A stretch of 64,000 nt of DNA from Paraspadella gotoi (GCA_051294375.1 CM119266.1:2283008-2347007); one strand, 5' to 3'; positions 12,701 through 36,481 are shown, numbered from the stretch's first letter. Notes: a model not told the origin generated them from the letters alone. Numbers and translations are program-made.

Positions 12701-14156
12701 TCTTAGCAAACTCACTTTAGTACTCGACGAGCAAGCTTCGGCTTTCCGTTTGTCTCCACGACTTTGAAGGCCACAACTTTCATGTCCGCTCTGACGCTCG
12801 TTTCGGAGACTTCCGGCCTGAGGTGTTGGAGAAAGGATTATATGTTGAAGTCTATATTTAACACAAAACTTTGAAATGTTGTTGTGACACTGGGCATCTT
12901 TTCCATTCAGCATAAAATCACCATCTATCGCTTTTTCTCCAGCATCATTGGTAAAACAACTTTGCAGTTTTGTCAGGTTCACCACTAACCAGCCTCTGAC
13001 GCAAATCACATTTAACCATTCACCAGCCTCACTAATCAACCACAACCTCACGGCCTTATCAAAAAAACCAAAGCTTCATCATTCTCACCAATCAATCGCA
13101 ACATCTCCAGCCTCACCAATCAATCTCAACATCTCCAGCCTGACCAATCAATCTCATCATCTCCAGCCTCACCAATCAATCTCATCATCTCCAGCCTCAC
13201 CAATCAATCTCAACATCTCCAGCCTCACCAATCAACCGCTTGGCGTCGAAGATTGTGTTGGTCGGATTCATCGCCACCTGATTCTTGGCGGCGTCGCCAA
13301 TCAGGCGCTCGGTGTCCGTGAAGGCGACGTAGAGGGAGTCGTGCGATTGCCCTAAAGAGAGAGAGAGAGAGAGAGAAGAGAGAGAGAGAGAGAGAGGAGA
13401 GAGAGAGAGAGAGAGAGAGAGAGAGAGAGAGAGAGAGAGAGAGAGAACAAGTCACAATTCACAAGTCACGACCAGGCTATTCGATGTTTATCTCTTCCGT
13501 CGATCCTCCGCCCATTCGCTCAGCTGTTTTCTTCGTCGATTTCGCTCTCAGCCGAAGACTCGATCGGCCTTCTTTCATCGAAATCGAATCCCCAGAGTTT
13601 CCCCTGTGAATCCCCATGTCGATCCCCATCCCGATCCCCATTTTAATCCTCGCGTCCAATTTCCATGCCTATTTTAAATTCCCCATCTGCCATTAGCATC
13701 ATAATCTCCATCCTTTGTTAATCCCTATTTTCAATCCCCAATGCCCAATCCCAATTTTCAATTCCCAATCCCCGAATCCGATCCTAAGTCATGATCCCCA
13801 ATCCTCAATCCCCAAATCCGAATCCATGATCCCCAATGCTCAAATCCCCAAATCCGATCCATGATCCCCAATCCTCAATCCCCAAATCCGATCCATGATC
13901 CCCAATCATCAATCTCCAAATCCGATCCATGATCCCCAATCCCCAAATCTGATCCATGATCCCCAATTCCTTAACCCCAAATTCCGTATCCTCATGATCC
14001 CCAATCCTCAATCCCCAAATCCGATTCCTGATCCCCAATCCTCAATCCCCTTACCTGATCATTGGCAATGATCTCCACCTTCCCGTGTTGAAAGACGCCG
14101 ACGCAAGAATAAGTCGTCCCGAGGTCGATTCCCACCGCGGGAAGTTTTCTCGACAT
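6723..14156 (-). CDS. hsp70: Cytosolic heat shock protein 70 (HSC70/HSP70), 17 exons, about 640 aa
   Basis: Manually spliced GT-AG exons: 14055-14156 ([34 protein letters not shown]), 13229-13351, 12716-12817, 12389-12500, 12041-12136, 11761-11870 ([14 protein letters not shown]), 11480-11550, 11112-11272, 10435-10550 (RARFEE), 10023-10091 ([14 protein letters not shown]), 9760-9925, 9430-9533, 8879-8961, 8656-8770, 8129-8284, 7362-7456, 6723-6870 (GPTVEEVD*). All three HSP70 signatures and the cytosolic EEVD end are present. Exons 2, 3 and 7 carry small indels, mostly in homopolymers, that are probably consensus errors. Confidence 0.96.
13085..13235 (-). repeat. ~25-28 bp tandem array containing the HSP70 exon 2 end and donor
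   Basis: About 5 units of TTGATTG|GTGAGGCTGGAGATG. Confidence 0.9.
13720..14050. repeat. Degenerate ~33-bp tandem array in HSP70 intron 1
   Basis: Unit similar to atccatgatccccaatcctcaatccccaaatccg, starting immediately after the donor. Confidence 0.85.
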
Positions 14157-14823
14157 TTTGTTTATATTTATTAAATTGTATTTATTTATTTTTTATTTTG
14201 TTTTTTAAATATTATTGTTAATCAAGGTAGCGAGCGAACGTCGGCGGGTTAATTGTACCGTTACTTTCGCCCGGTAAGATTTTCTTCGCTTTCACCTCAA
14301 CGGTTGGGATCCGTATTTCTCCCTCTAACCTTTTTTTTTGGAGAATTTACTCTTTGGCAATTTTCCTCGATCTAGCGCCTTTCTCATTCTATTCGCTTGG
14401 GGCTATCGTACTATTTATTTATTCAAATTATTTTACACGTAACCTTTCACTAAAACTTAGCTTTTTTTCTAAATGACATATTTGATAATCTTGTAAACGA
14501 CCTGATAATGATATATGTAATAAATAAATATAAATTTATAAATAAATTAATAATTAAATATATGTGTAAAAAATCATATATTCGGGTTATAACCGTTATA
14601 CGTGACCTTCACAATCGCAGGGATGAGGATTTTAAAACCCGTTAGCGATTTTTTTTAAACCGACGCTAATTAAATTTGGCGAAAAAAATTGGAGGTCGGA
14701 GCTTCGACTATTTTTTAATAATTATATCTTTTTATTTTTTTTTCTGTTTTTCTTTTTTTCTCTTTTAATGTAAATTTTTTGAGAGACTCCATCATCCAAC
14801 GCTGCGGGATTCGATCTAAAGAG

Positions 14824-35000: not shown

Positions 35001-36481
35001 CTCTGACGGTCTATTTCTGTCTGTCTGTGTCTGTCTGTTTAGGTCTATCTCTGGCTCCTCTCCGACTCTCTCCAACTCTCTCCGACTCTCTCCGACTCTC
35101 TCCGACTCTCTCCGACTCTCTCCGACTCTCTCCGACTCTCTCTCTCTTTCCCTACTCTCTCTTCGCCCCTCAAAATCCTTCACCTCATTCCTTCTCTTTC
35201 TTCCAAACCTCAACTTTTTTCTCAACCGAGAAAAGCCTTACCTTCCAAATCCAAGCCTTACCTTCTTCGCGTTCCGGTTCAGCTGCGCGGTGAGGACGAA
35301 GGCGCCGACGACGAAGAGAATCGCGACGACGCCGAACAGCAGCAGCACGAATTGGCAGCAGAGCCGCTTCCCGTGCCGCTTCTTTCCCGACCGCTTCCCG
35401 CCGCCGCAGTTGCCGCAGCACCTGAGTGCAGAGAGAGAGAAGTAAATCAAATGACCTTAACTTAAACTTTAAAGTATAAAAGGTTTTTTAAAAAAATTGT
35501 TTAAAAACTTTTGTTGGCTTCGCAATTTAGAGTCAGACTGAAGTAAGTAGAATAAAGCAGAGAGAGAGAGAGAGAGAGAGAGAGAGAGAGANNNNNNNNN
35601 NNNNNNNNNNNNNNNNNNNNNNNNNNNNNNNNNNNNNNNNNNNNNNNNNNNNNNNNNNNNNNNNNNNNNGAGAAGAGAGAGAGAGAGAGAAGAGAGAGAG
35701 AGCGAGAGAAAGACCTGGCGAGGAAGAGTTTTCCACAAAAAATGAATGAAATATAAATAGATAAACAAATGAACAAAAACTAAAAAATGAATAAACATAA
35801 TTAAATTCAACATCGTCTCCTTTCCGCACCTGCAGCAGCAGAAGCAGAAGCCGACGAAGGGCATGACGACAACGAAGAGGAGCCCGACGACGACGCAGAC
35901 GAAGACCCCGATCTTGACGAGGAGAGCGTCTTTCCAGTAGGCGTCGACGAAGTGTTGGAGGGCCGTGTCCTTTTTGTCCACGGACTCGAGATCCTCGAAC
36001 AACTTGAGGGGTTGGAAGAGGGAGGGGGGAATAGAGAGAGTGGTTTGGGGTAGAGTGGTTTGGGGAGGGGTGGGAAAGAACGGGATGTGAGTTACAAGGG
36101 TGCCAGAGATTCGGTTCGTGTGAACAGGCGTTGGTACGAGGAGTTTGGATAAAAGGTAAGTTTGTCGTTTAAGTTCGAAGTAAAGTGGGGAAAAAATGGC
36201 ATTTGTGATCGTCTTTCCCATCATCTACCAGAATCTTATCAGTGACTTACCTGGGTGAGGTTCCAATCGGGAAAGGGTCGATCGGAGGATCCGACGGCGA
36301 TGATGAAGTCGTTAGATACGTCGATGATGAAGTCGCTGAAGGAGTCGGAGGCTTCGGCGATCGTCTTCGCGACCGAGACGGTCGACTTCGTGTCGTTGGA
36401 GGCCGTCGTCGCTGTCGTCGTCGTCGACAGCAGCAACAGCGCAACGGCGACCAAGTGTTTGAGATGTAGGGCGAGGGTCAT
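26062..36481 (-). CDS. prom: Prominin (CD133)-like pentaspan membrane glycoprotein
   Basis: Exons: signal peptide 36251-36481; 35830-36002 + 35262-35421 (hallmark MPFVGFCFCCCRCCGNCGG and TM2); ~34598-34854; 33258-33553; 31114-31275; 30569-30770 (TM3/TM4); 30229-30434 (CEP...VILRCSKG); 29540-29764; ~28692-28947 (3' boundary uncertain); 28185-28431 (CTPI...C.LLLDPING); 27631-27776 (FWFEIGG, TM5); 26617-26740; 26461-26517; 26062-26137 (GHDNRGYRY*). A few local indels. Confidence 0.88.
27870..28155. repeat. 36-bp intronic minisatellite, about 8 units
   Basis: Unit aacaatcaaaacaaacaaaatagaacataagccaac. Confidence 0.9.
29898..30071 (-). mobile_element. Truncated solo LTR of the TRIM-like family in a prominin intron
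   Basis: Reverse complement of about 54762-54934 (tatggcaacatccgggttgcc...ggaacactacgcc). Confidence 0.72.
31310..33280 (-). repeat. ~48-bp polypurine tandem array (about 2 kb) built from a prominin exon end and donor
   Basis: Minus-strand unit GGGGGAGAAGATGTTCGCGGAG|GTGAGAGGGAGAGGGAGAGAGGAAGG; it fills almost the whole intron 31276-33257. Confidence 0.9.

What the first reader, a model, noticed from the sequence alone, without database searches (positions are those of the whole stretch)
13085..35270. Introns that begin with tandem amplifications of their own exon end plus 5' splice site, in three unrelated genes
Seen: arrays whose unit spans the exon/intron boundary and whose first unit is the real donor. 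HSP70 intron 2 (TTGATTG|GTGAG, about 5 units); transporter intron 4 (36 bp x5); a prominin intron (~48 bp units over 2 kb); prominin 35234-35266 (GAAG|GTAAGGCTT x2). Smaller echoes occur at 11081-11111, 23680-23710, 30517-30580 and 42332-42352. Known: duplication of an AG|GT proto-splice site is a proposed but rarely observed route to intron gain. Inference: this genome may have a boundary-anchored duplication process that creates or expands introns and leaves ladders of decoy donors that splicing must ignore or use alternatively.
Basis: partly seen in the sequence, partly recalled or inferred. Interest (0 to 1): 0.8.

Follow-up and report, generated by a model that had tools for sequence, protein, structure and literature searches.

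The report
Ordinary splice-donor minisatellites in repeat-rich introns
In three genes of an invertebrate, a short piece spanning an exon end and its splice signal has been copied 4 to about 40 times into the following intron; this is a known kind of repeat, it is not clearly more frequent here than random placement of this DNA's many intron repeats would give, and the cell most likely still uses the first signal.

Summary
The three main arrays are real: HSP70 intron 2 (28 bp x5.4), DUR3-type urea transporter intron 4 (36 bp x4.6) and prominin intron 5 (~48 bp, ~38 copies). Two of the four 'smaller echoes' are not exon-plus-donor copies. The layout is known: human F7, CBS, IFI6, LMNB2, PDGF, and amphioxus 'mirages'; the scan found it before in other genomes. 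Introns here are repeat-dense (33 arrays in 53 introns): 3 span a donor, 2.1 expected (P 0.36). Only a post-hoc subset of high-copy arrays hints at a donor bias (3 of 7, 0.55 expected, P 0.012). The arrays did not create their introns: none supplies the acceptor, and 12 of 16 DUR3 relatives lose homology at the same junction, including a 95%-identical one whose read-through shows no repeat. The first donor restores the homologues' spacing in DUR3 and is the only one keeping HSP70 intact. No RNA was available, so donor use is inferred. The DUR3 decoys are all in frame, a testable oddity. Verdict: new members of a known kind.

The parts
13084..13235 (-). HSP70 intron 2 donor-spanning minisatellite, 28 bp x5.4; true donor at 13228, donor-like sites at +28, +56, +84, +112, +140 (all frameshifting or behind an in-frame stop)
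   Evidence: present in short-read contigs of X1, X2, X5
22088..22251 (-). DUR3-type transporter intron 4 donor-spanning minisatellite, 36 bp x4.6; first donor 22230, donor-like sites at 22194, 22158, 22122, 22086, all in frame and stop-free
   Evidence: short-read contigs; spacing against DUR3 chains
31320..33281 (-). Prominin intron 5 donor-spanning minisatellite, ~48 bp, ~38 copies, fills nearly all of the 1982-nt intron; donor at 33257; 55% G on the sense strand
   Evidence: noisy sequence, not checked in reads
35232..35265 (-). Prominin intron 3: 13-nt junction echo (4 exon + 9 intron nt), second site 20 nt downstream, out of frame
11079..11111 (-). HSP70 intron 8: 10 bp x3.3 array beginning at intron base +1; no exon sequence in the unit; weak decoys
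   Evidence: covered without differences by X5 record 17
23679..23709 (-). Transporter intron 1: 9-nt junction echo at +22 and a further donor-like pentamer at +12
30517..30580 (-). Prominin intron 7: 12-nt copy of the exon end without a following GT; not a decoy donor
   Evidence: read from the sequence
42332..42352 (-). Short donor-consensus echo at +11 in intron 3 of a crystallin-like gene (label from my reading, untested)
11249..11456 (-).
   Evidence: the read tool skipped 11299-11485 as repeat
13790..14050 (-). HSP70 intron 1: 34 bp x7.7 G-rich array starting 4 nt inside the intron; does not span the donor
6723..14156 (-). Cytosolic-type HSP70 gene, 17 exons (hand model)
   Evidence: Pfam PF00012 E 1.4e-12 on exon 8; tblastn chain
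16300..23813 (-). DUR3-type urea transporter gene, 16 exons (hand model; 3' end approximate)
   Evidence: exons 4 and 5 hit only DUR3 chains in PDB, weak E 0.23-1.2 but collinear; 16 relatives at E<=1e-3
26070..36481 (-). Prominin gene, 15 exons (hand model)
   Evidence: Pfam PF05478 E 5.5e-11 on exon 2

Best explanation
These are ordinary minisatellites whose first unit happens to straddle an existing splice donor, likely born by slippage or repair at short microhomologies and likely ignored by splicing. Shown: the units hold 7-24 nt of exon end plus the donor and the start of the intron, and each array is followed by non-repeated intron sequence that carries the acceptor. Inferred: a first duplication across the junction leaves the exon and its donor intact and pushes all extra copies into the intron, so it survives selection, whereas the same event inside an exon is purged; unequal exchange then grows the array. 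Inferred from the F7 experiments: the most upstream donor wins; rare downstream use in HSP70 intron 2 and prominin intron 3 would give frameshifts or stops, in the transporter an in-frame insert of 12-48 residues.
For: Repeat density: 33 non-microsatellite arrays in 53 modelled introns; 3 span a donor, 2.12 expected, P 0.36; over the 24 settings P 0.096-0.72. Per-position test: 3 of 53 donors have an exact echo of >=12 nt against 7.0% of intronic and 0.1% of exonic positions, which also shows the purge in exons. Unique intron between array and acceptor: 266, 207 and about 40 nt. Prominin's last unit plus unique tail is a ~62-nt intron, and exon end and intron share a G5A microhomology. DUR3: 12 of 16 relatives lose homology right behind the same junction, 4 of 16 continue as spliced; the 95%-identical P0002 shows no repeat in the 20 residues of read-through. 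Exons 4 and 5 map to residues 120-153 and 157-187 of one DUR3 chain, i.e. zero insert with the first donor. HSP70 decoys all break the protein. Precedents: PMC1557585, PMC3087553.
Against: High-copy arrays lean to the donor: 3 of 7 arrays with >=4 copies span one, 0.55 expected, P 0.012 (subset chosen after seeing the data). 'Span or start within 6 nt' gives P 0.012-0.26. One window has little power to detect a two- to threefold bias. HSP70 intron 2 was not matched in any of 25 gap-bearing loci among 80, so that intron may be lineage-specific. Decoy donors score as high as the true ones, and in IFI6 and CBS some downstream sites are used.
Confidence: 0.78

Rival explanations
1. A real mutational or selective bias seeds or grows arrays at donors (for example G-rich intron starts that stall replication or form R-loops, or extra U1 sites that help weak donors), as suggested for amphioxus 'mirages'.
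For: 3 of 7 high-copy arrays span a donor, P 0.012 post hoc; strong arrays spanning or abutting a donor P 0.012-0.04 at score >=100; intron starts are richer in G (0.29) than intron middles (0.21); only 22 of 53 modelled donors begin GTRAG.
Against: No excess in the unselected set; the window was chosen because it showed the pattern; the HSP70 intron 2 unit has no G3 run; donor (3) versus acceptor (1) counts do not differ meaningfully and an asymmetry is expected from selection alone.
Confidence: 0.15
2. The introns were created by tandem duplication of an exonic AG|GT segment (Rogers model), and the arrays are the remains.
For: The DUR3 junction is AG|GT on both sides and the unit's first three codons encode the same residues as the start of exon 5; HSP70 intron 2 position unmatched in 80 loci; mechanism is documented (PMC3443670).
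Against: No array reaches the acceptor; intron-start/next-exon identity summed over 53 introns is 176 against 181 shuffled, and 7-of-12 matches occur 2 times against 1.9 expected; the DUR3 intron appears shared with 12 of 16 relatives; HSP70 intron 2 has no AG before its donor; most array-free HSP70 introns are equally unmatched.
Confidence: 0.03
3. The arrays, above all the 1.9-kb prominin one, are long-read assembly artefacts.
For: The window has uncorrected indels (seven in HSP70 exon 3 are corrected by short-read contigs); the prominin array shows 14% indels.
Against: HSP70 and DUR3 arrays appear in short-read contigs of 3 of 3 DNA runs laid, with unit variants; one of these runs may be the window's own source, but two studies are represented. 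The prominin array's existence is untested, its unit sequence and copy number are uncertain.
Confidence: 0.04

Closest known systems
Human minisatellites whose first monomer spans an exon-intron boundary: F7 IVS7 37-bp VNTR; also IFI6 (6-16) intron 2, CBS intron 13, LMNB2, PDGF intron 4 (PMC1557585; seen: abstract, introduction passages, discussion)
   Same: First unit = exon end + authentic donor + intron start; identical donor-like sites reiterated downstream; unit 28-48 bp and 5-40 copies fall in the published range (31-100 bp, 5-26 copies); LMNB2's repeat covers most of its intron (from the cited title), as in prominin intron 5.
   Different: Invertebrate host; three cases within 20 kb; DUR3 unit is a multiple of 3 and stop-free; donor use and copy-number polymorphism not measured here.
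Amphioxus 'mirages' (Adh3, globins BflGb6 and BflGb9; PMC3087553; seen: abstract and passages)
   Same: Tandem repeats spanning either exon boundary, several genes of one repeat-rich invertebrate genome, proposed there as a general phenomenon and as a route to intron gain; RT-PCR suggested normal splicing. The window also has one acceptor-spanning duplication.
   Different: Different animal; here a random-placement test was made and shows no clear excess; no sign of intron gain from the repeats.
[quoted passage not shown]
   Same: Duplication covering a splice-like AG|GT sequence.
   Different: There the duplication supplies new splice sites of a new intron; here it copies the donor of an intron that has its own unique 3' part and, for DUR3, appears old.

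Membership tests
Donor-spanning minisatellite (F7 type / mirage) | Head-to-tail array whose first unit spans an exon-intron boundary | tested here: met
   Array starts 7, 21 and 24 nt upstream of the donor
Donor-spanning minisatellite (F7 type / mirage) | Downstream units reiterate an intact donor sequence | tested here: met
   5, 4 and at least 17 further donor-like sites; scores equal to the first in HSP70 and DUR3
Donor-spanning minisatellite (F7 type / mirage) | Present in the genome, not an assembly artefact | tested here: met
Donor-spanning minisatellite (F7 type / mirage) | Most upstream donor is the main one used | tested here: inconclusive
   Required by frame in HSP70 and fits homologue spacing in DUR3; no RNA junction seen
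Donor-spanning minisatellite (F7 type / mirage) | Copy-number polymorphism | not testable with these tools
   Contigs break inside the arrays; unit sequence variants seen in X1 and X2 but no lengths
Intron gain by tandem duplication of AG|GT | Acceptor AG comes from the last repeat unit, abutting the next exon | tested here: not met
   266, 207 and about 40 nt of unique intron lie between array and acceptor
Intron gain by tandem duplication of AG|GT | Intron absent from orthologues | tested here: not met
   DUR3: 12 of 16 relatives lose homology at the same junction, read as intron read-through. HSP70 intron 2 unmatched in 80 loci; prominin gave no relatives
Intron gain by tandem duplication of AG|GT | Intron start resembles the next exon's start beyond chance | tested here: not met
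   Sum 176 against 181 in shuffled pairing over 53 introns

The most novel reading that the evidence does not exclude
This genome has a true, several-fold bias for high-copy minisatellites to be seeded at splice donors, and the in-frame, stop-free 36-bp ladder in the DUR3 transporter is a working alternative-donor dial that adds 12, 24, 36 or 48 residues to a conserved motif, with copy number setting the isoform range.
Probability: 0.12. Interest if true: 0.55.

Novelty: new member of a known kind. Interest (0 to 1): 0.2.

Why it matters
As it stands it adds three examples of a known repeat type and shows that a cluster of them is what a repeat-dense, intron-dense genome gives by chance; it also warns annotators that gene models here can pick a decoy donor. 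If a genome-wide bias held, this animal would offer hundreds of natural F7-like substrates to test 'first donor wins' outside mammals and to ask why junction-spanning duplications arise; in 10 paper searches (among them) I met single-locus reports and no genome-wide test against random placement, but the library is incomplete.

Tried and rejected
No whole genome is held, so the genome-wide test could not be run. No RNA holder listed; the run guessed as RNA (X9) covered neither stretch: no evidence either way on donor use. First random-placement null overweighted long arrays and missed the prominin array's start; replaced (both gave no excess of donor-spanning arrays). Introner-like ends: pairing of intron 5' and 3' ends is no stronger than shuffled pairing (P 0.28) and flanking direct repeats >=5 nt number 7 against 6.5: rejected. 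Word-index protein searches with transporter exon 12 and prominin exon 5 found nothing, so prominin intron age is untested. Pfam did not recognise 5 of 9 exon pieces. The joint 12139-12427 in DNA runs has 35 other letters between and is read as an HSP70 paralogue without that intron, not splicing. Paper searches returned 0. The chaetognath genome paper PMC12460157 (passages only) has no occurrence of 'tandem repeat' or 'satellite' in its main text; its supplements were not read; the arrow-worm label comes from an earlier AI note and was not tested.

Full report
Setting. The window is animal DNA with GC-rich exons and microsatellite-rich introns. I modelled by hand, on the minus strand, an HSP70 gene (16 introns), a transporter (15), a prominin (14), a crystallin-like gene (6; label from my reading) and two further introns: 53 introns, 19,622 nt. 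Pfam confirms HSP70 and prominin. Transporter exons 4 and 5 hit only DUR3 urea-proton symporter chains in the PDB, weakly but collinearly. No whole genome and no RNA run were available, so the models rest on reading frame and homology. The assembly carries long-read indels: short-read contigs correct seven in HSP70 exon 3.

Observation. Three arrays span a donor: HSP70 intron 2 (13084-13235, 28 bp x5.4, 7 nt of exon), transporter intron 4 (22088-22251, 36 bp x4.6, 21 nt of exon) and prominin intron 5 (33281 to about 31320, ~48 bp, ~38 copies, ~24 nt of exon). Prominin intron 3 has a 13-nt two-copy echo. Contigs from 3 of 3 DNA runs laid (two studies; one may be the window's own source) break at and deepen over the HSP70 and transporter arrays, and one contig bridges exon 4 into the first repeated exon end. 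Of the four small echoes, 11079-11111 starts at +1 with no exon in the unit, 30517-30580 lacks a GT, and the other two are 7-9 nt.

Chance. The introns hold 33 non-microsatellite arrays (unit >=10, score >=40). Placing their first units at random on array-collapsed introns predicts 2.12 donor overlaps; 3 are seen (P 0.36; 0.096-0.72 over 24 settings), and 1 acceptor overlap. By position, 3 of 53 donors have an exact downstream echo of >=12 nt, against 7.0% of 16,393 intronic and 0.1% of 5,737 exonic positions (this test missed the noisy prominin array, which would make 4 of 53). Against my reading: counting arrays that span or begin within 6 nt of a donor gives P 0.012-0.26, and 3 of the 7 arrays with >=4 copies span a donor, 0.55 expected, P 0.012. 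Both cuts were chosen after seeing the data in a window picked for this pattern, so they are a hint only; one window cannot exclude a modest bias.

Did the arrays make the introns? No sign of it. The tandem-duplication model needs the acceptor to come from the last unit (PMC3443670, passages); here 266, 207 and about 40 nt of unique intron follow the arrays. In prominin the last unit plus the unique tail is a ~62-nt intron, like the shortest introns of the window, and exon end and intron share a short G-run microhomology, so the array likely inflated a small intron thirtyfold. Intron starts resemble next-exon starts no more than shuffled pairs (176 against 181), although the transporter unit does begin with the same three residues as exon 5 (7 of 12 nt; 10.7% of random pairs with GT-starting exons reach this). 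A profile-free HMMER search with transporter exon 4 gave 16 relatives: 12 lose homology immediately behind the exon-end residues and a valine, which I read as gene calls running into an intron at the same position, and 4 continue in spliced form. P0002, 95% identical, runs on for 20 residues without any repeat. The intron therefore looks old and the array recent; the DNA behind those proteins was not seen. For HSP70, 25 of 80 eukaryote loci show intron-like gaps; none lies at intron 2's position, five have a phase-1 intron six codons upstream that the window lacks, and one shares intron 1, where an array starts at +4. Intron 2 may be lineage-specific, but so are most array-free introns of this gene. 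Prominin gave no relatives.

Which donor is used? Inferred. In HSP70 every downstream site shifts the frame or passes a stop. In the transporter exon 4 residues 2-35 match 120-153 and exon 5 residues 2-32 match 157-187 of one DUR3 chain, which is exact with the first donor; but all four downstream sites are in frame and stop-free and three score as high as the first (9.7 against 9.2 on a matrix from the window's own donors), so leaky use would give proteins with 12-48 extra residues.

What is known. Borensztajn et al. 2006 (PMC1557585; abstract, introduction passages and discussion read) describe the F7 37-bp VNTR whose first unit spans the donor, list IFI6, CBS, LMNB2 and PDGF as like cases, and show that the most upstream site is chosen; IFI6 and CBS also use the next two sites. 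PMC2812944 (passages) reports repeats at exon-intron boundaries forming new introns in human segmental duplications; PMC4974935 (abstract) a potato case. Earlier notes of this scan record the same layout in at least 10 genomes; I took the mirage paper from them and checked it.

Verdict. Real features, known kind, frequency compatible with chance in a repeat-dense genome; intron expansion yes, intron creation no. What remains open is a genome-wide donor bias for high-copy arrays and alternative use of the in-frame transporter ladder.

Noticed in passing
53 modelled donors, window 6871-62619: Donors are unusually degenerate: only 22 of 53 begin GTGAG or GTAAG, with 20 different first pentamers; hand models, not RNA-verified.
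   Followed up: partly
window 6723-14156: HSP70 with 16 introns; only introns 1 and 12 were confirmed at the same position in other eukaryote loci, intron 14 is 1 nt off a position in L076, and the widespread intron six codons upstream of intron 2 is missing. Suggests heavy intron gain in this lineage.
   Followed up: partly
window 22344-22588: Transporter intron 3 seems to lie 4 nt downstream of the position implied by most relatives' read-through peptides, while P0002 fits the window: possible intron sliding; inferred from peptides only.
   Followed up: no
protein P0003 (unnamed source): A distant DUR3 relative carries three tandem copies of a 20-residue unit across this same junction in spliced-like form; artefact or independent duplication.
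   Followed up: no
window 11249-11456: 100-bp duplication over the acceptor of HSP70 intron 7, bounded by microsatellites; the upstream copy would add a false exon start if used; could be a haplotype misjoin.
   Followed up: partly
window ~38400-47250 versus ~47270-61400: Near-identical repeated blocks, with the crystallin-like gene and a 36-bp x26 array present two or more times; likely false or recent segmental duplication.
   Followed up: no
window 12139-12427: DNA contigs of X1 and X2 show an HSP70 paralogue lacking intron 4.
   Followed up: no
window 1-110, 29910-30070, 54290-54460, 54760-54940, 63870-64000: A short dispersed repeat recurs at these places, once inside prominin intron 8 (seen by eye).
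   Followed up: no
window 61473-63700: Leucine-rich-repeat, Toll-like-looking gene with long exons on the minus strand (read by eye, label untested).
   Followed up: no
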